From Eledone cirrhosa (taxonomy: Eukaryota), in assembly GCA_964016885.1 (NCBI GenBank), contig OZ024758.1, positions 37,324,001-37,388,000 of the forward strand: a DNA stretch of 64,000 nucleotides, given 5' to 3'. The notes under the pieces were generated by a model. That model worked only from the letters and a program-made list of their open reading frames with translations. It did not search any database and was not told where the DNA came from. A program made the position numbers and the translations under genes. This document shows, in pieces, positions 19,901 through 61,787 of the stretch (position 1 is the stretch's first letter; each line of letters begins with the position of its first letter).

Positions 19901-20329
19901 TCAGAAGTAACTCCACTGTTGGTGAGAATTCATTTAAGTTCATGGTATTAGCTGTCAGAAGTAACTCCACTGTTGGTGAGAATTCATTTAAGTTCATGGT
20001 ATTAGCTGTCAGAAGTAACTCCACTGTTGGTGAGAATTCATTTAAGTTCATGGTATTAGCTGTTAGATGGAACTCCAATGTTGGTGAGAATTCATTTAAG
20101 TCATGGTACTAGCTGTCAGAAGTAACTCCACTGTTGGTGAGAATTCATTTAAGTTCATGGTATTAGCTGTCAGAAGGAACGCCACTGTTGGTGAGAATTC
20201 ATTTAAGTTAATGGTATTAGCTGTCAGAAGTAACTCCACTGTTGGTGAGAATTCATTTAAGTTCATGGTACTAGGTGTCAGAAGTAACTCCAATGTTGGT
20301 GAGAATTCATTTAAGTTCATGGTATTAGC

Positions 20330-27500: not shown

Positions 27501-28174
27501 GTATTAGCTGTCAGAAGGAACTCCAATGTTGGTGAGAATTCATTTAAGTCATGGTACTAGCTGTCAGAAGTAACTCCACTGTTGGTGAGAATTCATTTAA
27601 GTTCATGGTATTAGCTGACAGAAGGAACGCCACTGTTGGTGAGAATTCATTTAAGTTCATGGTATTAGCTGTCAGAAGTAACTCCACTGTTGGTGAGAAT
27701 TCATTTAAGTTCATGGTACTAGCTGTCAGAAGTAACTCCAATGTTGGTGAGAATTCATTTAAGTTCATGGTATTAGCTGTCAGAAGGAACTCCACTGTTG
27801 CTGAGAATGCATTTAAGTTCATGGTATTAGCTGTCAGAAGTAACTCCACTGTTGGTGAGAATTCATTTAAGTTCATGGTACTAGCTGTCAGAAGTAACTC
27901 CACTGTTGGTGAGAATTCATTTAAGTTCATGGTATTAGCTGTCAGAAGTCACTCCAATGTTGGTGAGAATTCATTTAAGTTCATGGTATTAGCTGTCAGA
28001 AGTCACTCCACTGTTGGTGAGAATTCATTTAAGTTCATGGTACTAGCTGTCAGAAGTAACCCCAATGTTGGTGAGAATTCATTTAAGTTCATGGTATTAG
28101 CTGTCAGAAGTCACTCCAATGTTGGTGAGAATTCATTTAAGTTCATGGTATTAGCTGTCAGAAGTAACTCCACT

Positions 28175-37100: not shown

Positions 37101-37570
37101 GTACTAGCTGTCAGAAGTAACTCCACTGTTGGTGAGAATTCATTTAAGTTCATGGTATTAGCTGTCAGAAGGAACGCCACTGTTGGTGAGAATTCATTTA
37201 AGTTAATGGTATTAGCTGTCAGAAGTAACTCCACTGTTGGTGAGAATTCATTTAAGTTCATGGTACTAGGTGTCAGAAGTAACTCCAATGTTGGTGAGAA
37301 TTCATTTAAGTTCATGGTATTAGCTGTCAGAAGGAACTCCACTGTTGCTGAGAATTCATTTAAGTTCATGGTATTAGCTGTCAGAAGTAACTCCAATGTT
37401 GGTGAGAATTCATTTAAGTTCATGGTATTAGCTGTCAGAAGTAACTCCACTGTTGGTGAGAATTCATTTAAGTTCATGGTATTAGCTGTCAGAAGTAACT
37501 CCACTGTTGGTGAGAATTCATTTAAGTCATGGTATTAGCTGTCAGAAGTAACTCCAATGTTGGTGAGAAT
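28175..37570. repeat. Higher-order tandem duplication, period 4800 bp (~89 monomers); the second copy has a 216-bp (4-monomer) deletion
   Basis: Private variants ACGTAAC 28971/33771 and AACTTCACT 29571/34371. ORF starts 28415/33215, 29061/33861 and 31759/36559 are +4800, then 32514/37098 is +4584. Confidence 0.9.
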
Positions 37571-37744
37571 TTATTTAAGTTCATGGTATTAGCTGTCAGA
37601 AGGAACGCCACTGTTGGTGAGAATTCATTTAAGTTCATGGTATTAGCTGTCAGAAGTAACTCCACTGTTGGTGAGAATTCATTTAAGTTCATGGTACTAG
37701 CTGTCAGAAGTAACTCCAATGTTGGTGAGAATTCATTTAAGTTC

Positions 37745-40700
37745 ATGGTATTAGCTGTCAGAAGGAACTCCACTGTTGCTGAGAATTCATTTAAGTTCAT
37801 GGTATTAGCTGTCAGAAGTAACTCCACTGTTGGTGAGAATTCATTTAAGTTCATGGTATTAGCTGTCAGAAGTAACTCCACTGTTGGTGAGAATTCATTT
37901 AAGTCATGGTATTAGCTGTCAGAAGTAACTCCATTGTTGGTGAGAATTCATTTAAGTCATGGTACTAGCTGTCAGAAGTAACTCCACTGTTGGTGAGAAT
38001 TCATTTAAGTCATGGTATTTATTAGCTGTCAGAAGTAACACCAATGTTGGTGAGAATTCATTTAAGTTCATGGTATTAGCTGTCAAAAGGAACGCCACTG
38101 TTGGTGAGAATTCATTTAAGTTCATGGTATTAGCTGTCAGAAGTCACTCCACTGTTGGTGAGAATTCATTTAAGTTCATGGTACTAGCTGTCAGAAGTAA
38201 CCCCAATGTTGGTGAGAATTCATTTAAGTTCATGGTATTAGCTGTCAGAAGTCACTCCAATGTTGGTGAGAATTCATTTAAGTTCATGGTATTAGCTGTC
38301 AGAAGTAACTCCAATGTTGGTGAGAATTTATTTAAGTTCATGGTATTAGCTGTCAGAAGTCACTCCACTGTTGGTGAGAATTCATTTAAGTTCATGGTAC
38401 TAGCTGTCAGAAGTAACCCCAATGTTGGTGAGAATTCATTTAAGTTCATGGTATTAGCTGTCAGAAGTCACTCCAATGTTGGTGAGAATTCATTTAAGTT
38501 CATGGTATTAGCTGTCAGAAGTAACTCCACTGTTGGTGAGAATTCATTTAAGTTCATGGTATTAGCTGTCAGAAGTAACTCCACTGTTGGTGAGAATTCA
38601 TTTAAGTTCATGGTACTAGCTGTCAGAAGTAACTCCACTGTTGGTGAGAATTCATTTAAGTTCATGGTATTAGCTGTCAGAAGTCACTCCAATGTTGGTG
38701 AGAATTCATTTAAGTTCATGGTATTAGCTGTCAGAAGTCACTCCACTGTTGGTGAGAATTCATTTAAGTTCATGGTACTAGCTGTCAGAAGTAACCCCAA
38801 TGTTGGTGAGAATTCATTTAAGTTCATGGTATTAGCTGTCAGAAGTCACTCCAATGTTGGTGAGAATTCATTTAAGTTCATGGTATTAGCTGTCAGAAGT
38901 AACTCCACTGTTGGTGAGAATTCATTTAAGTTCATGGTATTAGCTGTCAGAAGGAACTCCACTGTTGGTGAGAATTCATTTAAGTTCATGGTACTAGCTG
39001 TCAGAAGTAACTCCACTGTTGGTGAGAATTCATTTAAGTTCATGGTATTAGTTTGTCAGAAGTAACTCCACTGTTGGTGAGAATGCATTTAAGTCATGGT
39101 ATTAGTTGTCAGAAGTAACTCCAATGTTAGTGAGAATTCATTTAAGCCATGGTACTAGCTGTCAGAAGTAACTCCAATGTTGGTGAGAATTCATTTAAGT
39201 TCATGGTATTAGCTGTCAGAACGAACTCCACTGTTGGTGAGAATTCATTTAAGTTCATGGTATTAGCTGTCAGAAGTAACTCCACTGTTGGTGAGAATTC
39301 ATTTAAGTTCATGGTACTAGCTGTCAGAAGTAACTCCAATGTTGGTGAGAATTCATTTAAGTTCATGGTATTAGCTGTCAGAAGTAACTCCACTGTTGGT
39401 GAGAGTTCATTTAAGTCATGGTATTAGCTGTCAGAAGTAACTCCAATGTTGGTGAGAATTCATTTATGTTCATGGTATTAGCTGTCAGAAGTAACTCCAC
39501 TGTTGGTGAGAATTCATTTAAGTTCATGGTATTAGCTGTCAGAAGTAACTCCACTGTTGGTGAGAATTCATTTAAGTTCATGGTACTAGCTGTCAGAAGT
39601 AACTCCACTGTTGGTGAGAATTCATTTAAGTTCATGGTATTAGTTTGTCAGAAGTAACTCCACTGTTGGTGAGAATTCATTTAAGTCATGGTATTAGTTG
39701 TCAGAAGTAACTCCAATGTTGGTGAGAATTCATTTAAGTTCATGGTATTAGCTGTCAGAAGGAACTCCACTGTTGGTGAGAATTCATTTAAGTTCATGGT
39801 ATTAGCTGTCAGAAGGAACTCCAATGTTGGTGAGAATTCATTTAAGTCATGGTACTAGCTGTCAGAAGTAACTCCACTGTTGGTGAGAATTCATTTAAGT
39901 CATGGTATTAGCTGTCAGAAGTAACTCCACTGTTGGTGAGAATTCATTTAAGTTCATGGTACTAGCTGTCAGAAGTAACTCCAATGTTGGTGAGAATTCA
40001 TTTAAGTTCATGGTATTAGCTGTCAGAAGGAACTCCACTGTTGGTGAGAATTAATTTAAGTTCATGGTATTAGCTGTCAGAAGTAACTCCACTGTTGGTG
40101 AGAATTCATTTAAGTCATGGTATTAGCTGTCAGAAGTAACTCCATTGTTGGTGAGAATTCATTTAAGTCATGGTACTAGCTGTCAGAAGTAACTCCAATG
40201 TTGGTGAGAATTCATTTAAGTCATGGTACTAGCTGTCAGAAGTAACTCCAATGTTGGTGAGAATTCATTTAAGTTCATGGTATTAGCTGTCAGAAGGAAC
40301 TCCACTGTTGGTGAGAATTCATTTAAGTTCATGGTATTAGCTGTCAGAAGTAACTCCACTGTTGGTGAGAATTCATTTAAGTTCATGGTACTAGCTGTCA
40401 GAAGTAACTCCAATGTTGGTGAGAATTCATTTAAGTTCATGGTATTAGCTGTCAGAAGTAACTCCACTGTTGGTGAGAATTCATTTAAGTCATGGTATTA
40501 GCTGTCAGAAGTAACTCCAATGTTGGTGAGAATTCATTTAAGTTCATGGTATTAGCTGTCAGAAGTAACTCCAATGTTGGTGAGAATTCATTTAAGTTCA
40601 TGGTATTAGCTGTCAGAAGGAACTCCACTGTTGCTGAGAATTCATTTAAGTTCATGGTATTAGCTGTCAGAAGTAACTCCACTGTTGGTGAGAATTCATT

Positions 40701-43020
40701 TAAGTTCATGGTATTAGCTGTCAGAAGTAACTCCACTGTTGGTGAGAATTCATTTAAGTCATGGTATTAGCTGTCAGAAGTAACTCCATTGTTGGTGAGA
40801 ATTCATTTAAGTCATGGTACTAGCTGTCAGAAGTAACTCCACTGTTGGTGAGAATTCATTTAAGTCATGGTATTTATTAGCTGTCAGAAGTAACACCAAT
40901 GTTGGTGAGAATTCATTTAAGTTCATGGTATTAGCTGTCAGAAGTCACTCCACTGTTGGTGAGAATTCATTTAAGTTCATGGTACTAGCTGTCAGAAGTA
41001 ACCCCAATGTTGGTGAGAATTCATTTAAGTTCATGGTATTAGCTGTCAGAAGTCACTCCAATGTTGGTGAGAATTCATTTAAGTTCATGGTATTAGCTGT
41101 CAGAAGTAACTCCACTGTTGGTGAGAATTCATTTAAGTTCATGGTATTAGCTGTCAGAAGTCACTCCACTGTTGGTGAGAATTCATTTAAGTTCATGGTA
41201 CTAGCTGTCAGAAGTAACCCCAATGTTGGTGAGAATTCATTTAAGTTCATGGTATTAGCTGTCAGAAGTCACTCCAATGTTGGTGAGAATTCATTTAAGT
41301 TCATGGTATTAGCTGTCAGAAGTAACTCCACTGTTGGTGAGAATTCATTTAAGTTCATGGTATTAGCTGTCAGAAGTAACTCCACTGTTGGTAAGAATTC
41401 ATTTAAGTTCATGGTACTAGCTGTCAGAAGTAACTCCACTGTTGGTGAGAATTCATTTAAGTTCATGGTATTAGCTGTCAGAAGTCACTCCAATGTTGGT
41501 GAGAATTCATTTAAGTTCATGGTATTAGCTGTCAGAAGTCACTCCACTGTTGGTGAGAATTCATTTAAGTTCATGGTACTAGCTGTCAGAAGTAACCCCA
41601 ATGTTGGTGAGAATTCATTTAAGTTCATGGTATTAGCTGTCAGAAGTCACTCCAATGTTGGTGAGAATTCATTTAAGTTCATGGTATTAGCTGTCAGAAG
41701 TAACTCCACTGTTGGTGAGAATTCATTTAAGTTCATGGTATTAGCTGTCAGAAGGAACTCCACTGTTGGTGAGAATTCATTTAAGTTCATGGTACTAGCT
41801 GTCAGAAGTAACTCCACTGTTGGTGAGAATTCATTTAAGTTCATGGTATTAGTTTGTCAGAAGTAACTCCACTGTTGGTGAGAATGCATTTAAGTCATGG
41901 TATTAGTTGTCAGAAGTAACTCCAATGTTAGTGAGAATTCATTTAAGCCATGGTACTAGCTGTCAGAAGTAACTCCAATGTTGGTGAGAATTCATTTAAG
42001 TTCATGGTATTAGCTGTCAGAACGAACTCCACTGTTGGTGAGAATTCATTTAAGTTCATGGTATTAGCTGTCAGAAGTAACTCCACTGTTGGTGAGAATT
42101 CATTTAAGTTCATGGTACTAGCTGTCAGAAGTAACTCCAATGTTGGTGAGAATTCATTTAAGTTCATGGTATTAGCTGTCAGAAGTAACTCCACTGTTGG
42201 TGAGAGTTCATTTAAGTCATGGTATTAGCTGTCAGAAGTAACTCCAATGTTGGTGAGAATTCATTTATGTTCATGGTATTAGCTGTCAGAAGTAACTCCA
42301 CTGTTGGTGAGAATTCATTTAAGTTCATGGTATTAGCTGTCAGAAGTAACTCCACTGTTGGTGAGAATTCATTTAAGTTCATGGTACTAGCTGTCAGAAG
42401 TAACTCCACTGTTGGTGAGAATTCATTTAAGTTCATGGTATTAGTTTGTCAGAAGTAACTCCACTGTTGGTGAGAATTCATTTAAGTCATGGTATTAGTT
42501 GTCAGAAGTAACTCCAATGTTGGTGAGAATTCATTTAAGTTCATGGTATTAGCTGTCAGAAGGAACTCCACTGTTGGTGAGAATTCATTTAAGTTCATGG
42601 TATTAGCTGTCAGAAGGAACTCCAATGTTGGTGAGAATTCATTTAAGTCATGGTACTAGCTGTCAGAAGTAACTCCACTGTTGGTGAGAATTCATTTAAG
42701 TCATGGTATTAGCTGTCAGAAGTAACTCCACTGTTGGTGAGAATTCATTTAAGTTCATGGTACTAGCTGTCAGAAGTAACTCCAATGTTGGTGAGAATTC
42801 ATTTAAGTTCATGGTATTAGCTGTCAGAAGGAACTCCACTGTTGGTGAGAATTAATTTAAGTTCATGGTATTAGCTGTCAGAAGTAACTCCACTGTTGGT
42901 GAGAATTCATTTAAGTCATGGTATTAGCTGTCAGAAGTAACTCCATTGTTGGTGAGAATTCATTTAAGTCATGGTACTAGCTGTCAGAAGTAACTCCAAT
43001 GTTGGTGAGAATTCATTTAA
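37745..43020. repeat. Higher-order tandem duplication, period 2855 then 2801 bp (53/52 monomers)
   Basis: Private variants CCAATGTTAG 39121/41922 and CATTTATG 39461/42262 are +2801. ORF starts 37959/40814 are +2855 and 39149/41950 are +2801. Confidence 0.87.
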
Positions 43021-43089
43021 GTTCATGGTATTAGCTGTCAGAAGGAACTCCACTGTTGGTGAGAATTCATTTAAGTCATGGTATTAGCT

Positions 43090-46000
43090 GTCAGAAGTAA
43101 CTCCAATGTTGGTGAGAATTCATTTAAGTCATGGTACTAGCTGTCAGAAGTAACTCCAATGTTGGTGAGAATTCATTTAAGTTCATGGTATTAGCTGTCA
43201 GAAGGAACTCCACTGTTGGTGAGAATTCATTTAAGTTCATGGTATTAGCTGTCAGAAGTAACTCCACTGTTGGTGAGAATTCATTTAAGTTCATGGTACT
43301 AGCTGTCATAAGTAACTCCAATGTTGGTGAGAATTCATTTAAGTTCATGGTATTAGCTGTCAGAAGTAACTCCACTGTTGGTGAGAATTCATTTAAGTCA
43401 TGGTATTAGCTGTCAGAAGTAACTCCAATGTTGGTGAGAATTCATTTAAGTTCATGGTATTAGCTGTCAGAAGTAACTCCAATGTTGGTGAGAATTCATT
43501 TAAGTTCATGGTATTAGCTGTCAGAAGGAACTCCACTGTTGCTGAGAATTCATTTAAGTTCATGGTATTAGCTGTCAGAAGTAACTCCACTGTTGGTGAG
43601 AATTCATTTAAGTTCATGGTACTAGCTGTCAGAAGTAACTCCACTGTTGGTGAGAATTCATTTAAGTTCATGGTACTAGCTGTCAGAAGTAACTCCAATG
43701 TTGGTGAGAATTCATTTAAGTTCATGGTATTAGCTGTCAGAAGTAACTCCAATGTTGGTGAGAATTCATTTAAGTTCATGGTATTAGCTGTCAGAAGTAA
43801 CTCCACTGTTGGTGAGAATTCATTTAAGTTCATGGTATTAGCTGACAGAAGGAACGCCACTGTTGGTGAGAATTCATTTAAGTTCATGGTATTAGCTGTC
43901 AGAAGTAACTCCACTGTTGGTGAGAATTCATTTAAGTTCATGGTACTAGCTGTCAGAAGTAACTCCAATGTTGGTGAGAATTCATTTAAGTTCATGGTAT
44001 TAGCTGTCAGAAGTAACTCCACTGTTGGTGAGAATTCATTTAAGTTCATGGTACTAGCTGTCAGAAGTAACTCCACTGTTGGTGAGAATTCATTTAAGTT
44101 CATGGTATTAGCTGTCAGAAGTCACTCCAATGTTGGTGAGAATTCATTTAAGTTCATGGTATTAGCTGTCAGAAGTCACTCCACTGTTGGTGAGAATTCA
44201 TTTAAGTTCATGGTACTAGCTGTCAGAAGTAACCCCAATGTTGGTGAGAATTCATTTAAGTTCATGGTATTAGCTGTCAGAAGTCACTCCAATGTTGGTG
44301 AGAATTCATTTAAGTTCATGGTATTAGCTGTCAGAAGTAACTCCACTGTTGGTGAGAATTCATTTAAGTTCATGGTATTAGCTGTTAGAAGTAACTCCAC
44401 TGTTGGTGAGAATTCATTTAAGTTCATGGTATTAGCTGTCAGAAGGAACTCCACTGTTGGTGAGAATTCATTTAAGTTCATGGTACTAGCTGTCAGAAGT
44501 AACTCCACTGTTGGTGAGAATTCATTTAAGTTCATGGTATTAGTTTGTCAGAAGTAACTCCACTGTTGGTGAGAATTCATTTAAGTCATGGTACTAGCTG
44601 TCAGAAGTAACTCCACTGTTGGTGAGAATTCATTTAAGTTCATGGTATTAGCTGTCAGAAGTAACTCCACTGTTGGTGAGAATTCATTTAAGTTCATGGT
44701 ACTAGGTGTCAGAAGTAACTCCAATGTTGGTGAGAATTCTTTTAAGTTCATGGTATTAGCTGTCAGAAGGAACTCCACTGTTGCTGAGAATTCATTTAAG
44801 TTCATGGTATTAGCTGTCAGAAGTAACTCCAATGTTGGTGAGAATTCATTTAAGTTCATGGTATTAGCTGTCAGAAGGAACTCCACTGTTGGTGAGAATT
44901 AATTTAAGTTCATGGTATTAGCTGTCAGAAGTAACTCCACTGTTGGTGAGAATTCATTTAAGTCATGGTATTAGCTGTCAGAAGTAACTCCATTGTTGGT
45001 GAGAATTCATTTAAGTCATGGTACTAGCTGTCAGAAGTAACTCCAATGTTGGTGAGAATTCATTTAAGTCATGGTACTAGCTGTCAGAAGTAACTCCAAT
45101 GTTGGTGAGAATTCATTTAAGTTCATGGTATTAGCTGTCAGAAGGAACTCCACTGTTGGTGAGAATTCATTTAAGTTCATGGTATTAGCTGTCAGAAGTA
45201 ACTCCACTGTTGGTGAGAATTCATTTAAGTTCATGGTACTAGCTGTCATAAGTAACTCCAATGTTGGTGAGAATTCATTTAAGTTCATGGTATTAGCTGT
45301 CAGAAGTAACTCCACTGTTGGTGAGAATTCATTTAAGTCATGGTATTAGCTGTCAGAAGTAACTCCAATGTTGGTGAGAATTCATTTAAGTTCATGGTAT
45401 TAGCTGTCAGAAGTAACTCCAATGTTGGTGAGAATTCATTTAAGTTCATGGTATTAGCTGTCAGAAGGAACTCCACTGTTGCTGAGAATTCATTTAAGTT
45501 CATGGTATTAGCTGTCAGAAGTAACTCCACTGTTGGTGAGAATTCATTTAAGTTCATGGTACTAGCTGTCAGAAGTCACTCCACTGTTGGTGAGAATTCA
45601 TTTAAGTTCATGGTACTAGCTGTCAGAAGTAACTCCAATGTTGGTGAGAATTCATTTAAGTTCATGGTATTAGCTGTCAGAAGTAACTCCAATGTTGGTG
45701 AGAATTCATTTAAGTTCATGGTATTAGCTGTCAGAAGTAACTCCACTGTTGGTGAGAATTCATTTAAGTTCATGGTATTAGCTGACAGAAGGAACGCCAC
45801 TGTTGGTGAGAATTCATTTAAGTTCATGGTATTAGCTGTCAGAAGTAACTCCACTGTTGGTGAGAATTCATTTAAGTTCATGGTACTAGCTGTCAGAAGT
45901 AACTCCAATGTTGGTGAGAATTCATTTAAGTTCATGGTATTAGCTGTCAGAAGTAACTCCACTGTTGGTGAGAATTCATTTAAGTTCATGGTACTAGCTG

Positions 46001-46770
46001 TCAGAAGTAACTCCACTGTTGGTGAGAATTCATTTAAGTTCATGGTATTAGCTGTCAGAAGTCACTCCAATGTTGGTGAGAATTCATTTAAGTTCATGGT
46101 ATTAGCTGTCAGAAGTCACTCCACTGTTGGTGAGAATTCATTTAAGTTCATGGTACTAGCTGTCAGAAGTAACCCCAATGTTGGTGAGAATTCATTTAAG
46201 TTCATGGTATTAGCTGTCAGAAGTCACTCCAATGTTGGTGAGAATTCATTTAAGTTCATGGTATTAGCTGTCAGAAGTAACTCCACTGTTGGTGAGAATT
46301 CATTTAAGTTCATGGTATTAGCTGTTAGAAGTAACTCCACTGTTGGTGAGAATTCATTTAAGTTCATGGTATTAGCTGTCAGAAGGAACTCCACTGTTGG
46401 TGAGAATTCATTTAAGTTCATGGTACTAGCTGTCAGAAGTAACTCCACTGTTGGTGAGAATTCATTTAAGTTCATGGTATTAGTTTGTCAGAAGTAACTC
46501 CACTGTTGGTGAGAATTCATTTAAGTCATGGTACTAGCTGTCAGAAGTAACTCCACTGTTGGTGAGAATTCATTTAAGTTCATGGTATTAGCTGTCAGAA
46601 GTAACTCCACTGTTGGTGAGAATTCATTTAAGTTCATGGTACTAGGTGTCAGAAGTAACTCCAATGTTGGTGAGAATTCATTTAAGTTCATGGTATTAGC
46701 TGTCAGAAGGAACTCCACTGTTGCTGAGAATTCATTTAAGTTCATGGTATTAGCTGTCAGAAGTAACTCC
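43090..46770. repeat. Higher-order tandem duplication, period 1940 bp (36 monomers)
   Basis: Private variants AGCTGTCATA 43301/45241 and GCTGTTAGAA 44381/46321. ORF starts 43131/45071, 43400/45340 and 44588/46528. Confidence 0.9.
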
Positions 46771-49232
46771 ACTGTTGGTGAGAATTCATTTAAGTTCATG
46801 GTATTAGCTGTCAGAAGTAACTCCACTGTTGGTGAGAATTCATTTAAGTCATGGTATTAGCTGTCAGAAGTAACTCCATTGTTGGTGAGAATTCATTTAA
46901 GTCATGGTACTAGCTGTTAAAAGTAACTCCAATGTTGGTGAGAATTCATTTAAGTCATGGTACTAGCTGTCAGAAGTAACTCCAATGTTGGTGAGAATTC
47001 ATTTAAGTTCATGGTATTAGCTGTCAGAAGGAACTCCACTGTTGGTGAGAATTCATTTAAGTTCATGGTATTAGCTGTCAGAAGTAACTCCACTGTTGGT
47101 GAGAATTCATTTAAGTTCATGGTATTAGCTGTCAGAAGTAACTCCACTGTTGGTGAGAATTCATTTAAGTTCATGGTACTAGCTGTCAGAAGTAACTCCA
47201 ATGTTGGTGAGAATTCATTTAAGTTCATGGTATTAGCTGTCAGAAGTAACTCCACTGTTGGTGAGAATTCATTTAAGTCATGGTATTAGCTGTCAGAAGT
47301 AACTCCAATGTTGGTGAGAATTCATTTAAGTTCATGGTATTAGCTGTCAGAAGTAACTCCAATGTTGGTGAGAATTCATTTAAGTTCATGGTATTAGCTG
47401 TCAGAAGGAACTCCACTGTTGCTGAGAATTCATTTAAGTTCATGGTATTAGCTGTCAGAAGTAACTCCACTGTTGGTGAGAATTCATTTAAGTTCATGGT
47501 ACTAGCTGTCAGAAGTAACTCCACTGTTGGTGAGAATTCATTTAAGTTCATGGTATTAGCTGTCAGAAGTCACTCCAATGTTGGTGAGAATTCATTTAAG
47601 TTCATGGTATTAGCTGTCAGAAGTCACTCCACTGTTGGTGAGAATTCATTTAAGTTCATGGTACTAGCTGTCAGAAGTAACCCCAATGTTGGTGAGAATT
47701 CATTTAAGTTCATGGTATTAGCTGTCAGAAGTCACTCCAATGTTGGTGAGAATTCATTTAAGTTCATGGTATTAGCTGTCAGAAGTAACTCCACTGTTGG
47801 TGAGAATTCATTTAAGTTCATGGTATTAGCTGTCAGAAGGAACTCCACTGTTGGTGAGAATTCATTTAAGTTCATGGTACTAGCTGTCAGAAGTAACTCC
47901 ACCGTTGGTGAGAATTCATTTAAGTTCATGGTATTAGTTTGTCAGAAGTAACTCCACTGTTGGTGAGAATGCATTTAAGTCATGGTATTAGTTGTCAGAA
48001 GTAACTCCAATGTTGGTGAGAATTCATTTAAGCCATGGTACTAGCTGTCAGAAGTAACTCCAATGTTGGTGAGAATTCATTTAAGTTCATGGTATTAGCT
48101 GTCAGAACGAACTCCACTGTTGGTGAGAATTCATTTAAGTTCATGGTATTAGCTGTCAGAAGTAACTCCACTGTTGGTGAGAATTCATTTAAGTTCATGG
48201 TACTAGCTGTCAGAAGTAACTCCAATGTTGGTGAGAAATCATTTAAGTTCATGGTATTAGCTGTCAGAAGTAACTCCACTGTTGGTGAGAGTTCATTTAA
48301 GTCATGGTATTAGCTGTCAGAAGTAACTCCAATGTTGGTGAGAATTCATTTAAGTTCATGGTATTAGCTGTCAGAAGTAACTCCACTGTTGGTGAGAATT
48401 CATTTAAGTTCATGGTATTAGCTGTCAGAAGTAACTCCACTGTTGGTGAGAATTCATTTAAGTTCATGGTACTAGCTGTCAGAAGTAACTCCACTGTTGG
48501 TGAGAATTCATTTAAGTTCATGGTATTAGTTTGTCAGAAGTAACTCCACTGTTGGTGAGAATTCATTTAAGTCATGGTATTAGTTGTCAGAAGTAACTCC
48601 AATGTTGGTGAGAATTCATTTAAGTTCATGGTATTAGCTGTCAGAAGGAACTCCACTGTTGGTGAGAATTCATTTAAGTTCATGGTATTAGCTGTCAGAA
48701 GGAACTCCAATGTTGGTGAGAATTCATTTAAGTCATGGTACTAGCTGTCAGAAGTAACTCCACTGTTGGTGAGAATTCATTTAAGTTCATTGTATTAGCT
48801 GTCAGAAGGAACTCCACTGTTGGTGAGAATTCATTTAAGTTCATGGTATTAGCTGTCAGAAGGAACGCCACTGTTGGTGAGAATTCATTTAAGTTCATGG
48901 TATTAGCTGTCAGAAGTAACTCCACTGTTGGTGAGAATTCATTTAAGTTCATGGTACTAGCTGTCAGAAGTAACTCCAATGTTGGTGAGAATTCATTTAA
49001 GTTCATGTTATTAGCTGTCAGAAGGAACTCCACTGTTGGTGAGAATTCATTTAAGTTCATGGTATTAGCTGTCAGAAGTAACTCCACTGTTGGTGAGAAT
49101 TCATTTAAGTCATGGTATTAGCTGTCAGAAGTAACTCCATTGTTGGTGAGAATTCATTTAAGTCATGGTACTAGCTGTCAGAAGTAACTCCAATGTTGGT
49201 GAGAATTCATTTAAGTCATGGTACTAGCTGTC

Positions 49233-49318
49233 AAATGAATTCTCACCAACATTGGAGTTACTTCTGACAGCTAGTACCATGACTTAAATGAATTCTCACC
49301 AACAATGGAGTTACTTCT
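49233..49318 (-). repeat. 86-bp inverted satellite segment (~1.6 monomers), the only reverse-orientation sequence in the array
   Basis: AAATGAATTCTCACCAACATTGGAG...AACAATGGAGTTACTTCT is the exact reverse complement of 49127-49212. Forward orientation resumes at AAGTTCATGG (49319). Confidence 0.97.
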
Positions 49319-49494
49319 AAGTTCATGGTATTAGCTGTCAGAAGGAACTCCACTGTTGGTGAGAATTCATTTAAGTTCATGGTATTAGCTGTCAGAAGTA
49401 ACTCCACTGTTGGTGAGAATTCATTTAAGTTCATGGTATTAGCTGTCAGAAGTAACTCCACTGTTGGTGAGAATTCATTTAAGTTCATGGTACT

Positions 49495-52400
49495 AGCTGT
49501 CAGAAGTAACTCCAATGTTGGTGAGAATTCATTTAAGTTCATGGTATTAGCTGTCAGAAGGAACTCCACTGTTGCTGAGAATTCATTTAAGTTCATGGTA
49601 TTAGCTGTCAGAAGTAACTCCACTGTTGGTGAGAATTCATTTAAGTTCATGGTACTAGCTGTCAGAAGTAACTCCACTGTTGGTGAGAATTCATTTAAGT
49701 TCTTGGTATTAGCTGTCAGAAGTCACTCCAATGTTGGTGAGAATTCATTTAAGTTCATGGTATTAGCTGTCAGAAGTCACTCCACTGTTGGTGAGAATTC
49801 ATTTAAGTTCATGGTACTAGCTGTCAGAAGTAACCCCAATGTTGGTGAGAATTCATTTAAGTTCATGGTATTAGCTGTCAGAAGTCACTCCAATGTTGGT
49901 GAGAATTCATTTAAGTTCATGGTATTAGCTGTCAGAAGTAACTCCACTGTTGGTGAGAATTCATTTAAGTTCATGGTATTAGCTGTCAGAAGTAACTCCA
50001 CTGTTGGTGAGAATTCATTTAAGTTCATGGTATTAGCTGTCAGAAGGAACTCCACTGTTGGTGAGAATTCATTTAAGTTCATGGTACTAGCTGTCAGAAG
50101 TAACTCCACTGTTGGTGAGAATTCATTTAAGTTCATGGTATTAGTTTGTCAGAAGTAACTCCACTGTTGGTGAGAATTCATTTAAGTCATGGTATTAGTT
50201 GTCAGAAGTAACTCCAATGTTGATGAGAATTCATTTAAGTTCATGGTATTAGCTGTCAGAACGAACTCCACTGTTGGTGAAAATTCATTTAAGTTCATGG
50301 TATTAGCTGTCAGAAGTAACTCCACTGTTGGTGAGAATTCATTTAAGTTCATGGTACTAGCTGTCAGAAGTAACTCCAATGTTGGTGAGAATTCATTTAA
50401 GTTCATGGTATTAGCTGTCAGAAGTAACTCCACTGTTGGTGAGAGTTCATTTAAGTCATGGTATTAGCTGTCAGAAGTAACTCCAATGTTGGTGAGAATT
50501 CATTTAAGTTCATGGTATTAGCTGTCAGAAGTAACTCCACTGTTGGTGAGAATTCATTTAAGTTCATGGTATTAGCTGTCAGAAGTAACTCCACTGTTGG
50601 TGAGAATTCATTTAAGTTCATGGTACTAGCTGTCAGAAGTAACTCCACTGTTGGTGAGAATTCATTTAAGTTCATGGTATTAGTTTGTCAGAAGTAACTC
50701 CACTGTTGGTGAGAATTCATTTAAGTCATGGTATTAGTTGTCAGAAGTAACACCAATGTTGGTGAGAATTCATTTAAGTTCATGGTATTAGCTGTCAGAA
50801 GGAACTCCACTGTTGGTGAGAATTCATTTAAGTTCATGGTATTAGCTGTCAGAAGGAACTCCAATGTTGGTGAGAATTCATTTAAGTCATGGTACTAGCT
50901 GTCAGAAGTAACTCCACAGTTGGTGAGAATTCATTTAAGTTCATGGTATTAGCTGTCAGAAGGAACTCCACTGTTGGTGAGAATTCATTTAAGTTCATGG
51001 TACTAGCTGTCAGAAGGAACTCCACTGTTGGTGAGAATTCATTTAAGTTCATGGTATTAGTTTGTCAGAAGTAACTCCACTGTTGGTGAGAATTCATTTA
51101 AGTCATGGTATTAGTTGTCAGAAGTAACTCCAATGTTGGTGATAATTCATTTAAGCCATGGTACTAGCTGTCAGAAGTAACTCCAATGTTGGTGAGAATT
51201 CATTTAATTTCATGGTATTAGCTGTCAGAACGAACTCCACTGTTGGTGAGAATTCATTTAAGTTCATGGTATTAGCTGTCAGAAGGAACTCCACTGTTGG
51301 TGAGAATTCATTTAAGTTCATGGTATTAGCTGTCAGAAGGAACGCCACTGTTGGTGAGAATTCATTTAAGTTCATGGTATTAGCTGTCAGAAGTAACTCC
51401 ACTGTTGGTGAGAATTCATTTAAGTTCATGGTACTAGCTGTCAGAAGTAACTCCAATGTTGGTGAGAATTCATTTAAGTTCATGGTATTAGCTGTCAGAA
51501 GGAACTCCACTGTTGGTGAGAATTCATTTAAGTTCATGGTATTAGCTGTCAGAAGTAACTCCACTGTTGGTGAGAATTCATTTAAGTTCATGGTATTAGC
51601 TGTCAGAAGTAACTCCACTGTTGGTGAGAATTCATTTAAGTTCATGGTACTAGCTGTCAGAAGTAACTCCAATGTTGGTGAGAATTCATTTAAGTTCATG
51701 GTATTAGCTGTCAGAAGTAACTCCACTGTTGGTGAGAATTCATTTAAGTCATGGTATTAGCTGTCAGAAGTAACTCCAATGTTGGTGAGAATTCATTTAA
51801 GTTCATGGTATTAGCTGTCAGAAGTAACTCCAATGTTGGTGAGAATTCATTTAAGTTCATGGTATTAGCTGTCAGAAGGAACTCCACTGTTGCTGAGAAT
51901 TCATTTAAGTTCATGGTATTAGCTGTCAGAAGTAACTCCACTGTTGGTGAGAATTCATTTAAGTTCATGGTAATAGCTGTCAGAAGTACCCCAATGTTGG
52001 TGAGAATTCATTTAAGTTCATGGTATTAGCTGTCAGAAGTCACTCCAATGTTGGTGAGAATTCATTTAAGTTCATGGTATTAGCTGTCAGAAGTAACTCC
52101 ACTGTTGGTGAGAATTCATTTAAGTTCATGGTATTAGCTGTCAGAAGTAACTCCACTGTTGGTGAGAATTCATTTAAGTTCATGGTATTAGCTGTCAGAA
52201 GGAACTCCACTGTTGGTGAGAATTCATTTAAATTCATGGTACTAGCTGTCAGAAGTAACTCCACTGTTGGTGAGAATTCATTTAAGTTCATGGTATTAGT
52301 TTGTCAGAAGTAACTCCACTGTTGGTGAGAATTCATTTACGTCATGGTATTAGTTGTCAGAAGTAACTCCAATGTTGGTGAGAATTCATTTAAGCCATGG

Positions 52401-55400
52401 TACTAGCTGTCAGAAGTAACTCCAATGTTGGTGAGAATTCATTTAAGTTCATGGTATTAGCTGTCAGAACGAACTCCACTGTTGGTGAAAATTCATTTAA
52501 GTTCATGGTATTAGCTGTCAGAAGTAACTCCACTGTTGGTGAGAATTCATTTAAGTTCATGGTACTAGCTGTCAGAAGTAACTCCAATGTTGGTGAGAAT
52601 TCATTTAAGTTCATGGTATTAGCTGTCAGAAGTAACTCCACTGTTGGTGAGAGTTCATTTAAGTCATGGTATTAGCTGTCAGAAGTAACTCCAATGTTGG
52701 TGAGAATTCATTTAAGTTCATGGTATTAGCTGTCAGAAGTAACTCCACTGTTGGTGAGAATTCATTTAAGTTCATGGTATTAGCTGTCAGAAGTAACTCC
52801 ACTGTTGGTGAGAATTCATTTAAGTTCATGGTACTAGCTGTCAGAAGTAACTCGACTGTTGGTGAGAATTCATTTAAGTTCATGGTATTAGTTTGTCAGA
52901 AGTAACTCCACTGTTGGTGAGAATTCATTTAAGTCATGGTATTAGTTGTCAGAAGTAACTCCAATGTTGGTGAGAATTCATTTAAGTTCATGGTATTAGC
53001 TGTCAGAAGGAACTCCACTGTTGGTGAGAATTCATTTAAGTTCATGGTATTAGCTGTCAGAAGGAACTCCAATGTTGGTGAGAATTCATTTAAGTCATGG
53101 TACTAGCTGTCAGAAGTAACTCCAATGTTGGTGAGAATTCATTTAAGTCATGGTACTAGCTGTCAGAAGTAACTCCAATGTTGGTGAGAATTCATTGAAG
53201 TTCATGGTATTAGCTGTCAGAAGGAACTCCACTGTTGGTGAGAATTCATTTAAGTTCATGGTATTAGCTGTCAGAAGTAACTCCACTGTTGGTGAGAATT
53301 CATTTAAGTTCATGGTATTAGCTGACAGAAGTAACTCCACTGTTGGTGAGAATTCATTTAAGTTCATGGTACTAGCTGTCAGAAGTAACTCCAATGTTGG
53401 TGAGAATTCATTTAAGTTCATGGTATTAGCTGTCAGAAGTAACTCCACTGTTGGTGAGAATTCATTTAAGTCATGGTATTAGATGTCAGAAGTAACTCCA
53501 ATGTTGGTGAGAATTCATTTAAGTTCATGGTATTAGCTGTCAGAAGTAACTCCAATGTTGGTGAGAATTCATTTAAGTTCATGGTATTAGCTGTCAGAAG
53601 GAACTCCACTGTTGCTGAGAATTCATTTAAGTTCATGGTATTAGCTGTCAGAAGTAACTCCACTGTTGGTGAGAATTCATTTAAGTTCATGGTACTAGCT
53701 GTCAGAAGTAACTCCACTGTTGGTGAGAATTCATTTAAGTTCTTGGTATTAGCTGTCAGAAGTCACTCCAATGTTGGTGAGAATTCATTTAAGTTCATGG
53801 TATTAGCTGTCAGAAGTCACTCCACTGTTGGTGAGAATTCATTTAAGTTCATGGTACTAGCTGTCAGAAGTAACCCCAATGTTGGTGAGAATTCATTTAA
53901 GTTCATGGTATTAGCTGTCAGAAGTCACTCCAATGTTGGTGAGAATTCATTTAAGTTCATGGTATTAGCTGTCAGAAGTAACTCCACTGTTGGTGAGAAT
54001 TCATTTAAGTTCATGGTATTAGCTGTCAGAAGTAACTCCACTGTTGGTGAGAATTCATTTAAGTTCATGGTATTAGCTGTCAGAAGGAACTCCACTGTTG
54101 GTGAGAATTCATTTAAGTTCATGGTACTAGCTGTCAGAAGTAACTCCACTGTTGGTGAGAATTCATTTAAGTTCATGGTATTAGTTTGTCAGAAGTAACT
54201 CCACTGTTGGTGAGAATTCATTTAAGTCATGGTATTAGTTGTCAGAAGTAACTCCAATGTTGATGAGAATTCATTTAAGTTCATGGTATTAGCTGTCAGA
54301 ACGAACTCCACTGTTGGTGAAAATTCATTTAAGTTCATGGTATTAGCTGTCAGAAGTAACTCCACTGTTGGTGAGAATTCATTTAAGTTCATGGTACTAG
54401 CTGTCAGAAGTAACTCCAATGTTGGTGAGAATTCATTTAAGTTCATGGTATTAGCTGTCAGAAGTAACTCCACTGTTGGTGAGAGTTCATTTAAGTCATG
54501 GTATTAGCTGTCAGAAGTAACTCCAATGTTGGTGAGAATTCATTTAAGTTCATGGTATTAGCTGTCAGAAGTAACTCCACTGTTGGTGAGAATTCATTTA
54601 AGTTCATGGTATTAGCTGTCAGAAGTAACTCCACTGTTGGTGAGAATTCATTTAAGTTCATGGTACTAGCTGTCAGAAGTAACTCCACTGTTGGTGAGAA
54701 TTCATTTAAGTTCATGGTATTAGTTTGTCAGAAGTAACTCCACTGTTGGTGAGAATTCATTTAAGTCATGGTATTAGTTGTCAGAAGTAACTCCAATGTT
54801 GGTGAGAATTCATTTAAGTTCATGGTATTAGCTGTCAGAAGGAACTCCACTGTTGGTGAGAATTCATTTAAGTTCATGGTATTAGCTGTCAGAAGGAACT
54901 CCAATGTTGGTGAGAATTCATTTAAGTCATGGTACTAGCTGTCAGAAGTAACTCCACAGTTGGTGAGAATTCATTTAAGTTCATGGTATTAGCTGTCAGA
55001 AGGAACTCCACTGTTGGTGAGAATTCATTTAAGTTCATGGTACTAGCTGTCAGAAGGAACTCCACTGTTGGTGAGAATTCATTTAAGTTCATGGTATTAG
55101 TTTGTCAGAAGTAACTCCACTGTTGGTGAGAATTCATTTAAGTCATGGTATTAGTTGTCAGAAGTAACTCCAATGTTGGTGATAATTCATTTAAGCCATG
55201 GTACTAGCTGTCAGAAGTAACTCCAATGTTGGTGAGAATTCATTTAATTTCATGGTATTAGCTGTCAGAACGAACTCCACTGTTGGTGAGAATTCATTTA
55301 AGTTCATGGTATTAGCTGTCAGAAGGAACTCCACTGTTGGTGAGAATTCATTTAAGTTCATGGTATTAGCTGTCAGAAGGAACGCCACTGTTGGTGAGAA

Positions 55401-58400
55401 TTCATTTAAGTTCATGGTATTAGCTGTCAGAAGTAACTCCACTGTTGGTGAGAATTCATTTAAGTTCATGGTACTAGCTGTCAGAAGTAACTCCAATGTT
55501 GGTGAGAATTCATTTAAGTTCATGGTATTAGCTGTCAGAAGGAACTCCACTGTTGGTGAGAATTCATTTAAGTTCATGGTATTAGCTGTCAGAAGTAACT
55601 CCACTGTTGGTGAGAATTCATTTAAGTTCATGGTATTAGCTGTCAGAAGTAACTCCACTGTTGGTGAGAATTCATTTAAGTTCATGGTACTAGCTGTCAG
55701 AAGTAACTCCAATGTTGGTGAGAATTCATTTAAGTTCATGGTATTAGCTGTCAGAAGTAACTCCACTGTTGGTGAGAATTCATTTAAGTCATGGTATTAG
55801 CTGTCAGAAGTAACTCCAATGTTGGTGAGAATTCATTTAAGTTCATGGTATTAGCTGTCAGAAGTAACTCCAATGTTGGTGAGAATTCATTTAAGTTCAT
55901 GGTATTAGCTGTCAGAAGGAACTCCACTGTTGCTGAGAATTCATTTAAGTTCATGGTATTAGCTGTCAGAAGTAACTCCACTGTTGGTGAGAATTCATTT
56001 AAGTTCATGGTAATAGCTGTCAGAAGTACCCCAATGTTGGTGAGAATTCATTTAAGTTCATGGTATTAGCTGTCAGAAGTCACTCCAATGTTGGTGAGAA
56101 TTCATTTAAGTTCATGGTATTAGCTGTCAGAAGTAACTCCACTGTTGGTGAGAATTCATTTAAGTTCATGGTATTAGCTGTCAGAAGTAACTCCACTGTT
56201 GGTGAGAATTCATTTAAGTTCATGGTATTAGCTGTCAGAAGGAACTCCACTGTTGGTGAGAATTCATTTAAATTCATGGTACTAGCTGTCAGAAGTAACT
56301 CCACTGTTGGTGAGAATTCATTTAAGTTCATGGTATTAGTTTGTCAGAAGTAACTCCACTGTTGGTGAGAATTCATTTACGTCATGGTATTAGTTGTCAG
56401 AAGTAACTCCAATGTTGGTGAGAATTCATTTAAGCCATGGTACTAGCTGTCAGAAGTAACTCCAATGTTGGTGAGAATTCATTTAAGTTCATGGTATTAG
56501 CTGTCAGAACGAACTCCACTGTTGGTGAAAATTCATTTAAGTTCATGGTATTAGCTGTCAGAAGTAACTCCACTGTTGGTGAGAATTCATTTAAGTTCAT
56601 GGTACTAGCTGTCAGAAGTAACTCCAATGTTGGTGAGAATTCATTTAAGTTCATGGTATTAGCTGTCAGAAGTAACTCCACTGTTGGTGAGAGTTCATTT
56701 AAGTCATGGTATTAGCTGTCAGAAGTAACTCCAATGTTGGTGAGAATTCATTTAAGTTCATGGTATTAGCTGTCAGAAGTAACTCCACTGTTGGTGAGAA
56801 TTCATTTAAGTTCATGGTATTAGCTGTCAGAAGTAACTCCACTGTTGGTGAGAATTCATTTAAGTTCATGGTACTAGCTGTCAGAAGTAACTCGACTGTT
56901 GGTGAGAATTCATTTAAGTTCATGGTATTAGTTTGTCAGAAGTAACTCCACTGTTGGTGAGAATTCATTTAAGTCATGGTATTAGTTGTCAGAAGTAACT
57001 CCAATGTTGGTGAGAATTCATTTAAGTTCATGGTATTAGCTGTCAGAAGGAACTCCACTGTTGGTGAGAATTCATTTAAGTTCATGGTATTAGCTGTCAG
57101 AAGGAACTCCAATGTTGGTGAGAATTCATTTAAGTCATGGTACTAGCTGTCAGAAGTAACTCCAATGTTGGTGAGAATTCATTTAAGTCATGGTACTAGC
57201 TGTCAGAAGTAACTCCAATGTTGGTGAGAATTCATTGAAGTTCATGGTATTAGCTGTCAGAAGGAACTCCACTGTTGGTGAGAATTCATTTAAGTTCATG
57301 GTATTAGCTGTCAGAAGTAACTCCACTGTTGGTGAGAATTCATTTAAGTTCATGGTATTAGCTGACAGAAGTAACTCCACTGTTGGTGAGAATTCATTTA
57401 AGTTCATGGTACTAGCTGTCAGAAGTAACTCCAATGTTGGTGAGAATTCATTTAAGTTCATGGTATTAGCTGTCAGAAGTAACTCCACTGTTGGTGAGAA
57501 TTCATTTAAGTCATGGTATTAGATGTCAGAAGTAACTCCAATGTTGGTGAGAATTCATTTAAGTTCATGGTATTAGCTGTCAGAAGTAACTCCAATGTTG
57601 GTGAGAATTCATTTAAGTTCATGGTATTAGCTGTCAGAAGGAACTCCACTGTTGCTGAGAATTCATTTAAGTTCATGGTATTAGCTGTCAGAAGTAACTC
57701 CACTGTTGGTGAGAATTCATTTAAGTTCATGGTACTAGCTGTCAGAAGTAACTCCACTGTTGGTGAGAATTCATTTAAGTTCTTGGTATTAGCTGTCAGA
57801 AGTCACTCCAATGTTGGTGAGAATTCATTTAAGTTCATGGTATTAGCTGTCAGAAGTCACTCCACTGTTGGTGAGAATTCATTTAAGTTCATGGTACTAG
57901 CTGTCAGAAGTAACCCCAATGTTGGTGAGAATTCATTTAAGTTCATGGTATTAGCTGTCAGAAGTCACTCCAATGTTGGTGAGAATTCATTTAAGTTCAT
58001 GGTATTAGCTGTCAGAAGTAACTCCACTGTTGGTGAGAATTCATTTAAGTTCATGGTATTAGCTGTCAGAAGTAACTCCACTGTTGGTGAGAATTCATTT
58101 AAGTTCATGGTATTAGCTGTCAGAAGGAACTCCACTGTTGGTGAGAATTCATTTAAGTTCATGGTACTAGCTGTCAGAAGTAACTCCACTGTTGGTGAGA
58201 ATTCATTTAAGTTCATGGTATTAGTTTGTCAGAAGTAACTCCACTGTTGGTGAGAATTCATTTAAGTCATGGTATTAGTTGTCAGAAGTAACTCCAATGT
58301 TGATGAGAATTCATTTAAGTTCATGGTATTAGCTGTCAGAACGAACTCCACTGTTGGTGAAAATTCATTTAAGTTCATGGTATTAGCTGTCAGAAGTAAC

Positions 58401-61400: not shown

Positions 61401-61787
61401 GCTGACAGAAGTAACTCCACTGTTGGTGAGAATTCATTTAAGTTCATGGTACTAGCTGTCAGAAGTAACTCCAATGTTGGTGAGAATTCATTTAAGTTCA
61501 TGGTATTAGCTGTCAGAAGTAACTCCACTGTTGGTGAGAATTCATTTAAGTCATGGTATTAGATGTCAGAAGTAACTCCAATGTTGGTGAGAATTCATTT
61601 AAGTTCATGGTATTAGCTGTCAGAAGTAACTCCAATGTTGGTGAGAATTCATTTAAGTTCATGGTATTAGCTGTCAGAAGGAACTCCACTGTTGCTGAGA
61701 ATTCATTTAAGTTCATGGTATTAGCTGTCAGAAGTAACTCCACTGTTGGTGAGAATTCATTTAAGTTCATGGTACTAGCTGTCAGAA
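49495..61787. repeat. Three near-identical higher-order repeat copies, period 4040 bp (75 monomers)
   Basis: Private variants appear in triplicate: TCTTGG 49701/53741/57781, GATAATTC 51141/55181/59221, ATTCATTTAC 52331/56371/60411, CTCGACT 52851/56891/60931, TTCATTGAAG 53191/57231/61271. All ORF coordinates repeat at +4040. Confidence 0.95.

What the first reader, a model, noticed from the sequence alone, without database searches (positions are those of the whole stretch)
49127..49318. Single fold-back inverted duplication giving a perfect 86-bp stem with a 20-nt loop
Seen: 49233-49318 is the exact reverse complement of 49127-49212, separated by AAGTCATGGTACTAGCTGTC (49213-49232). The inverted arm carries the local diagnostic variants (rare CCATTG, the -1 AAGTCAT form, GTACTA), which points to the adjacent upstream DNA as the template. 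Compared with homologous contexts (about 44985-45150 and 46870-47040), it replaces a 33-nt stretch AGAAG...CATTT. Each junction has only about 1 nt of possible microhomology. Inference: a short-range replication template switch or templated-insertion end-joining event, captured in an otherwise unidirectional array.
Basis: partly seen in the sequence, partly recalled or inferred. Interest (0 to 1): 0.75.

Follow-up and report, generated by a model that had tools for sequence, protein, structure and literature searches.

The report
In-register flipped patch in satellite DNA
In a multi-megabase array of a 54-letter repeat, an 86-letter back-to-front copy of the neighbouring DNA sits in place of 33 letters, likely from a copying slip onto the opposite strand; it recurs in a copied block, and a second, separate patch also keeps the repeat's register, but raw reads have not confirmed either patch and neither shows a sign of function.

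Summary
The 86-bp stem with a 20-nt loop is exact. It is the only inverted stretch in a window of pure 54-bp satellite, and it replaces 33 nt present in 25 of 25 homologous contexts.

It is not single in the genome. A second copy lies 365 kb away, in a 24-kb block copy that differs by one substitution and two whole-monomer indels. A separate 182-bp inverted island lies 1.1 Mb away. In both events the joints are reciprocal in monomer phase: a clean flip plus a whole-monomer gain. The chance is 6e-4 per event, or 0.03 given whole-monomer length. Both use the same TT|AA bond.

Best reading: a short-range template switch (known four-point class) with repeat slippage, then passive copying. The one junction that could be tested was absent from contigs of four public runs; this is inconclusive, so artefact stays at about 14%.

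The scan noted amplified inverted islands earlier in other satellites of this genome. This is a new member of a known kind.

The parts
1..64000 (+). 54-bp tandem satellite, one orientation; part of an array on contig C19 that starts at 33.516 Mb and was still seen at 39.77 Mb (segment A = monomer positions 1-33, segment B = 34-54)
30380..54440 (+). About 24-kb block (edges approximate, inside monomer homology) that carries the event and has a copy 365 kb downstream; the window copy is the likely donor
   Evidence: 114 of 323 six-monomer words shared with the window's flanks, 2 of 323 with the other copy's flanks
49127..49212 (+). Forward arm, the inferred template: A1 (14T variant), B1 (one-base deletion, 46C), A2 (14A variant)
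49213..49232 (+). 20-nt loop = B2, an ordinary segment B identical to B1
49232..49233 (.). Joint 1: leaves after monomer position 54, enters the reverse strand at position 33; 1 nt microhomology
49233..49318 (-). Inverted arm, reverse complement of A1-B1-A2, in place of the 33-nt A3; net gain 53 nt = one monomer
49318..49319 (.). Joint 2: leaves the reverse strand at position 1, resumes forward at position 34 (centre of TTAA); 1 nt microhomology
49319..49339 (+). B3, resumption of the ancestral monomer order
44980..45139 (+). Un-rearranged homologous context (ancestral state); a second exact one starts at 40132

Best explanation
The 86-bp stem is likely a real scar of one DNA-copying slip, in which a growing strand likely left the array at a monomer boundary, copied the neighbouring upstream repeats from the opposite strand and returned to the forward strand, and the scar was later likely carried along passively when a 24-kb block was copied 365 kb away. 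Shown: the tract, the piece it replaces, the second copy, and an independent 182-bp island built the same way. Also shown: in both events the leaving points share one monomer phase and the entry and return points share another. Each event therefore equals a clean flip of a short piece (33 and 22 nt) plus a gain of whole monomers (1 and 3). Inferred: the primary act is a micro-inversion-type switch onto the intact opposite strand or sister chromatid. While reversed, the strand re-aligns on neighbouring repeats, which adds whole monomers and keeps the register. For the second island a weak quasi-palindrome in the monomer likely set the switch points; for the finding itself no such guide is seen. 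No function is indicated.
For: Exact reverse-complement tract. Ancestral state in 25 of 25 contexts, 22 exact and 3 with one extra substitution. Second copy is identical over 3023 of 3023 nt, inside a block that differs by one substitution and two whole-monomer indels, so two non-identical templates carry both joints. The event is one of 9 private monomer types shared by the two block copies, against 1 private to one copy, so it predates the block copy. Independent island at C19:38501514: 159 of 160 nt match the DNA just left of its first joint, and 181 of 182 match an intact paralog 3.5 kb upstream. The one mismatch is the variant carried by the replaced piece, as expected if the strand slipped back to that piece. 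Reciprocal phases: P = 6.2e-4 for four free points, 0.034 given whole-monomer net length; I noted this on the first event before finding the second. The second island's breakpoint pair scores 8 of 10 pairs, reached by 3 of 2916 position pairs in a 14A monomer. One double substitution elsewhere perfects the same quasi-palindrome. Orders 3-2-1-4 and 3-1-2-4 are observed classes, and pre-existing homology is not required (PMC5453318). Tracts up to 318 bp are reported (bioRxiv 2021.11.26.470150).
Against: Joint 1 has zero depth in Logan contigs of three runs of one sample and of one run of another organism. A rough calibration gave 16-28-fold depth per assembly copy in that sample. That sample may be another individual, and contigs drop rare paths, but there is no read support. 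The finding's own breakpoints have no quasi-palindrome (4 of 10 pairs, top 28%), and to keep register it needs two slips or a coincidence. No bare 22- or 33-nt flipped seed was found genome-wide or in 1.13 Mb. Reciprocity rests on two events. The shared TT|AA bond alone is weak (my estimate 0.07-0.15). The double substitution is 1 of 27 kinds, p about 0.03-0.15. The 10-pair score was chosen after seeing the data. The quasi-palindrome folds at only -1.7 kcal/mol.
Confidence: 0.6

Rival explanations
1. Assembly or library artefact: a chimeric or fold-back molecule entered the consensus, and a mis-traversed repeat graph duplicated it.
For: No independent read support for joint 1. The best holders' word share (0.72-0.80 of 40) fits a sample that lacks the 17% junction words. 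The copied block is about one long read in length and is flanked by an identical 14-kb duplication. The same scaffold has an orientation switch at a 200-N gap.
Against: The two copies differ by a substitution and two whole-monomer indels, so they need two templates (paralogs, or two haplotypes placed in tandem); either way both carry the joints. The window copy has no private single-copy variant in 443 monomers, so base error looks low. An out-and-back island with reciprocal joints is not the usual single-switch chimera (recalled, not from a call).
Confidence: 0.14
2. Two steps: a 33-nt in-place micro-inversion came first and formed a 33-bp hairpin with the upstream A2 (20-nt loop). A later intra-strand fold-back extended the stem by one monomer and re-annealed on the flipped piece.
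For: Gives the finding's sequence exactly, explains the reciprocal phases with only two new joints, and hides the later switches in homology.
Against: No unextended seed was found. It cannot give the second island, whose first reversed B is the loop's own type and so needs the intact piece as template.
Confidence: 0.1
3. Double-strand break with 33 nt lost: the left end folds back on itself, is extended by 86 nt, and is captured by end joining.
For: Loop of 20 nt and 1-nt microhomology at capture; fold-back insertions of 2 to about 150 bp captured by NHEJ are documented in yeast (PMC11724301, passages).
Against: There is no inverted microhomology to prime the fold-back (0 nt behind the joint, 1 nt at it), whereas the yeast events use a 10-bp imperfect one. 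The reciprocal phases would be coincidence. It cannot give the second island, which contains the replaced piece.
Confidence: 0.1
4. Duplicate, then cut, flip and re-ligate: a local tandem duplication came first, and the 86 or 182 nt were then inverted in place by two breaks.
For: Explains reciprocal joints with no loss or gain. The second island equals a perfect in-place flip inside a trimer duplication, including its one mismatch. Adjacent exact trimer duplications exist (7 in 8654 monomers).
Against: Neither required precursor was seen in 8654 monomers (0 and 0). The finding's precursor is not a simple tandem duplication and needs three steps. Two breaks so close together are argued to be unlikely (PMC8755829, section 7).
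Confidence: 0.06

Closest known systems
Short-range template-switch mutations, four-point model (Loytynoja and Goldman 2017, PMC5453318; passages and Discussion read; bioRxiv 10.1101/2021.11.26.470150, passages)
   Same: Exact reverse-complement tract from nearby DNA, little or no homology at the joints, orders 3-2-1-4 (finding) and 3-1-2-4 (second island), one-step creation of a perfect hairpin, length within the reported range.
   Different: Here the substrate is a tandem array, the joints are reciprocal in monomer phase, and the net gain is whole monomers. The passages I read do not discuss satellites (0 hits for 'satellite').
Human-chimpanzee micro-inversions of 17-33 nt and their microhomology-mediated BIR model (PMC8755829; passages and part 2 of section 7)
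   Same: The flipped-in-place core is 33 and 22 nt; the second island sits in short imperfect inverted repeats; copying from a sister template fits.
   Different: [quoted passage not shown] The finding has no such repeats, and both islands gained whole monomers.
Local fold-back templated insertions at double-strand breaks (PMC11724301, passages; MMBIR-type insertions PMC8421209, three passages)
   Same: Inverted local copy, a loop of tens of nt, 0-5 nt microhomology at the capture joint.
   Different: They are primed at an inverted microhomology, which is lacking here, and they give no reason for reciprocal phases.
Periodicity-preserving indels in Arabidopsis CEN178 arrays (bioRxiv 10.1101/2025.06.02.657473, passages)
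   Same: Whole-monomer gains, mosaic copies of neighbours and in-register block copies, like the 24-kb block here.
   Different: No inversions are mentioned in its main text (0 hits for 'inversion' or 'inverted').
Tribolium macro-dyad satellite arrays with conserved inversion sites (PMC13081366, passages)
   Same: Strand switches inside a satellite that could form hairpins.
   Different: Those sites occur in thousands of conserved copies and bound kilobase sub-arrays. Here there are three islands from two events in about 125,000 motif hits.

Membership tests
Short-range template-switch mutation (four-point model) | Inserted tract is an exact reverse complement of nearby sequence | tested here: met
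   86 of 86; second island 159 of 160 locally and 181 of 182 against a paralog
Short-range template-switch mutation (four-point model) | Ancestral allele known and explained by one switch-and-return | tested here: met
   25 of 25 homologous contexts; flanks identical to the context at 44980
Short-range template-switch mutation (four-point model) | Order of switch points among the observed classes (point 4 never before point 1) | tested here: met
   3-2-1-4 and 3-1-2-4; classes from PMC5453318
Short-range template-switch mutation (four-point model) | Confirmed in raw reads as a real allele | tested here: inconclusive
   Joint 1 absent from contigs of 4 of 4 runs laid; joint 2 masked by ordinary satellite contigs
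Short-range template-switch mutation (four-point model) | Arises during replication by a polymerase switch | not testable with these tools
   Needs genetics or mutation-accumulation lines
Definite micro-inversion (PMC8755829) | Pure in-place inversion without gain | tested here: not met
   Net gain 53 and 160 nt
Definite micro-inversion (PMC8755829) | Flanking inverted repeats of 3 nt or more at the edges | tested here: not met
   Finding: 1 nt, 4 of 10 pairs. Met only for the second island: two 4-bp repeats one base from each joint, 8 of 10 pairs
Fold-back insertion at a double-strand break | Priming at an inverted microhomology next to the break | tested here: not met
   0 nt behind joint 1, 1 nt at it
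Macro-dyad satellite architecture (Tribolium) | Conserved inversion sites amplified to thousands, with long opposed sub-arrays | tested here: not met
   Three islands genome-wide; the one large switch examined lies at a scaffold gap

The most novel reading that the evidence does not exclude
Satellite arrays have their own inversion route, a register-preserving flip. A short piece is inverted with exactly reciprocal joints while whole monomers are added from the intact opposite strand, and in this family it starts or ends at one preferred bond (the centre of TTAA, where a weak quasi-palindrome or a nick site lies). Tandem arrays would then turn ordinary micro-inversions into long perfect hairpins in one step, and these rare islands would be the founding state of the amplified inverted cassettes seen in other satellites.
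Probability: 0.18. Interest if true: 0.6.

Novelty: new member of a known kind. Interest (0 to 1): 0.3.

Why it matters
Satellite mutation spectra measured so far stress whole-monomer indels and gene conversion, and how a one-way array first acquires a strand switch is rarely seen at base resolution. Here the monomer variants give the ancestral allele, the template, the joints and one later copying step for a young event, with a second event as replicate. If reciprocal, in-register joints hold up in more cases, they constrain the mechanism (intact opposite strand plus repeat slippage), and they explain why such islands can ride along in array duplications without breaking periodicity. On two events without read support it is a well-resolved example of a known mutation class, with no sign of function.

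Tried and rejected
Read support: the first laying (30-nt flanks) was swamped by ordinary satellite contigs and showed no piece across a joint. The RAD run X21 was uninformative (by my arithmetic about 0.3 reads expected for two copies). The second laying showed zero depth left of joint 1 in 4 of 4 runs. The depth right of joint 2 most likely comes from ordinary contigs running over the end of the stretch and says nothing on the joint.

The idea of a 365-kb tandem duplication was rejected: homology is limited to about 24 kb. The large forward/reverse switch at C19:39.15 Mb is at a 200-N gap, so it is no usable junction. Collapse of a former long inversion was rejected because the flanks continue the local monomer order and the tract ends do not match the downstream DNA. 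A native hairpin at the finding's breakpoints was rejected (segment A folds at -1.2 to -1.9 kcal/mol; 4 of 10 pairs).

The table of clustered substitutions was corrupted by a too-loose anchor and was dropped; one search repeats it cleanly. Only the enumeration of 486 possible doubles is used. The ungapped comparison of the two flanking duplicates started out of register and was replaced. The mirror-image double substitution was not among the 27 kinds in 1.13 Mb and was not searched genome-wide.

A paper search with four satellite motifs found 0 papers, so the family is not named. PMC7954356 gave nothing for my terms. The sequence look-up in earlier findings gave two unrelated bacterial windows. 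Resemblance of the TTT|AA bond to a LINE endonuclease site is recalled, untested, and has no poly(A) or target duplication to back it.

Full report
Observation. Positions 49233-49318 are the exact reverse complement of 49127-49212 around a 20-nt loop, and the stem extends at neither end. The window is a single 54-bp tandem array of 1187 copies with 101 monomer types, and this is the only inverted stretch. I call monomer positions 1-33 segment A and 34-54 segment B. The locus reads A1 B1 A2 B2 rc(A1 B1 A2) B3. The predicted fold of the stem is -101 kcal/mol, against -13 for a 180-nt native stretch.

Ancestral state and template. In 464 kb examined, the three monomers that lead up to the event are followed in 25 of 25 other places by a 14A-type monomer and a 6G-type monomer; 22 are exact and 3 have one further substitution. 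The 106 nt left of joint 1 and the 42 nt right of joint 2 equal the context at 44980. The tract therefore replaced the 33-nt A3, a net gain of 53 nt, which is one monomer. The exact 86-mer also occurs forward at 40132, 42933 and 44980 and 20 times in 164 kb. The adjacent DNA is thus the simplest template, not the only possible one. Each joint has 1 nt of microhomology.

Setting. The window lies at G000:C19:37324001-37388000. A 22-nt monomer motif has 111,811 forward and 13,071 reverse hits in the 3.0-Gb assembly. The C19 array starts at 33.516 Mb, and the family also lies on C23. The one large forward/reverse switch that I examined falls at a 200-N scaffold gap at 39.15 Mb, so it is no evidence of a real inversion. 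An earlier AI note calls this genome a likely octopus; I did not test that. Four satellite motifs found 0 papers.

Second copy. Both junction words occur twice. The second copy, 364,793 bp downstream, is identical over 3023 of 3023 nt. It lies in a block of about 24 kb (443 against 447 monomers) whose copies differ by one missing monomer, a 1-against-5 monomer replacement and one substitution. The block's six-monomer words are shared with the window's flanks (114 of 323) and hardly with the other copy's flanks (2 of 323), so the window is the likely donor. The other copy is flanked by an identical 259-monomer (14-kb) duplication, which fits an out-and-back long-range copy. Nine private monomer types, the event among them, are shared by both copies, and one is private to one copy. 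The event is therefore older than the block copy. If the second copy is instead the other haplotype placed in tandem, two templates still carry the joints.

Census of strand switches. Six gap patterns over the whole assembly found only these two copies and one more island, at C19:38501514-38501695. These patterns need exact motifs and miss islands without them. A motif-free scan of 1,130,100 fetched bases (20,883 monomers, roughly a sixth of the family) found the same three islands and one 9-nt trace.

Second event. It leaves the forward strand after position 11, enters the reverse strand at 33, runs 182 nt, leaves at 12 and resumes at 34. An intact paralog 3.5 kb upstream gives the ancestral state: 22 nt were replaced and 160 nt (three monomers) were gained. 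The tract matches the 160 nt left of its first joint at 159 and the paralog at 181 of 182. The one mismatch is the 14A variant of the replaced piece, and the tract's last 22 nt equal that piece reversed. Microhomology is 0 at both joints. Because the tract contains the replaced piece, its template must have been an intact opposite strand, sister or paralog.

Shared geometry. In both events the two leaving points share one monomer phase, and the entry and return points share another. Each event equals a clean flip of a short piece plus whole monomers. For four free points the chance is 6.2e-4, and 0.034 if the net length is already a whole number of monomers. I noted this on the first event before finding the second. 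Both events use the bond between positions 33 and 34, the centre of TTAA; alone this is weak (my estimate 0.07-0.15). The second event's breakpoints sit in a two-base bubble between two 4-bp inverted repeats of the 14A monomer: 8 of 10 pairs, reached by 3 of 2916 position pairs (score chosen after the fact; fold only -1.7 kcal/mol). One double substitution, found once in the assembly, closes that same bubble. It is the only one of 27 kinds of adjacent doubles with a reverse template of 9 nt, p about 0.03-0.15, so it is suggestive only. The finding's own breakpoints score 4 of 10 (top 28%), so no quasi-palindrome explains them.

Read support. The best holders of the stretch are three runs of one sample, with 0.72-0.80 of 40 words. 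Junction words are 58 of 342 distinct words, so 6.8 of 40 would be missing in a sample without the joints; 8, 9 and 11 are missing. Laid at 100% likeness, their contigs and those of run X1 give zero depth over 49211-49230, so joint 1 is not there. Joint 2 could not be read. Two variants suggest 16-28-fold depth per assembly copy in that sample, if its array resembles the assembly's. The sample may be another individual, and contigs drop rare paths. This result counts against the reading without refuting it.

Mechanism. Best (0.6): one copying episode with a switch to the intact opposite strand, re-alignment on neighbouring repeats while reversed, and return next to the entry point; later passive copying. 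The rivals are artefact (0.14), a seed flip followed by hairpin extension (0.10; fits the finding, not the second island, and no seed was found), break with fold-back and end joining (0.10), and duplication followed by an in-place flip (0.06; precursors 0 and 0 in 8654 monomers).

Comparison. The four-point model lists 3-2-1-4 (31% with its mirror), 3-1-2-4 (23%) and pure inversion (45%), and needs no prior repeats (PMC5453318; passages, and Discussion). Tracts up to 318 bp are reported in humans (bioRxiv 2021.11.26.470150; passages). Micro-inversions of 17-33 nt flanked by short inverted repeats, with a sister-templated model, are in PMC8755829 (passages; part 2 of section 7). Yeast fold-back insertions are in PMC11724301 (passages) and MMBIR-type insertions in PMC8421209 (three passages). 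Arabidopsis centromere indels preserve periodicity (bioRxiv 2025.06.02.657473; passages). Strand switches in satellites are known from Tribolium (PMC13081366; passages), Hieracium (PMC11566620; passages) and human pericentromeres (PMC13684623; passages). My searches (listings, plus the passages named) showed no description of reciprocal, in-register islands with a whole-monomer gain. I read no supplements; those of PMC5453318 on switch-point spacing may bear on this. Earlier notes of this scan report inverted islands amplified to hundreds of copies in other satellites of this genome (unchecked). This finding would be the young, barely copied state of the same thing.

Verdict. The feature is real in the assembly, probably real in the animal, and a known kind of mutation in a satellite setting. 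One detail is worth a follow-up: reciprocal joints in two of two events. Interest 0.3.

Noticed in passing
G000:C19:38501514-38501695 (L049): Independent 182-bp inverted island, single copy, reciprocal joints at monomer positions 11|12 and 33|34, net gain of three monomers.
   Followed up: yes
G000:C19:37095186-37095204 (L123): Single monomer with a two-base change at positions 33-34 that perfects the quasi-palindrome used by the second island.
   Followed up: partly
G000:C19:37705062-37758300 (L036-L042): The 24-kb block copied from the window sits between two identical 14-kb stretches: a duplication-insertion-duplication in register with the monomer.
   Followed up: partly
G000:C19:39149785-39149984 (L104): The array changes orientation across a 200-N scaffold gap; the reversed part may only be mis-oriented.
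   Followed up: partly
G000:C19 from about 37096924 to beyond 37130000 (L110-L113, L011): The array is interrupted by more than 33 kb of non-satellite DNA rich in microsatellites.
   Followed up: no
G000:C19:39900001 and 40000001 (L121, L024): A different 5-bp-unit satellite (TTAGC/ATAGC/TTAGG mix) near the end of the contig, with non-satellite probes between it and the 54-bp array.
   Followed up: no
G000:C23:30037211-30810000 (L179-L183): The same 54-bp family forms an array near the end of a second contig and shares a rare variant with parts of the C19 array.
   Followed up: partly
G000:C19:38590633 (L101): A double substitution at monomer positions 24-25 (3 copies in the fetched set) turns an imperfect 10-nt palindrome around the EcoRI site into a perfect one.
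   Followed up: no
window 375, 5226, 9810: A higher-order pattern with a period of about 4.6-4.9 kb at the window's left end, different from the about 1.9-kb pattern near 43500-47500.
   Followed up: no
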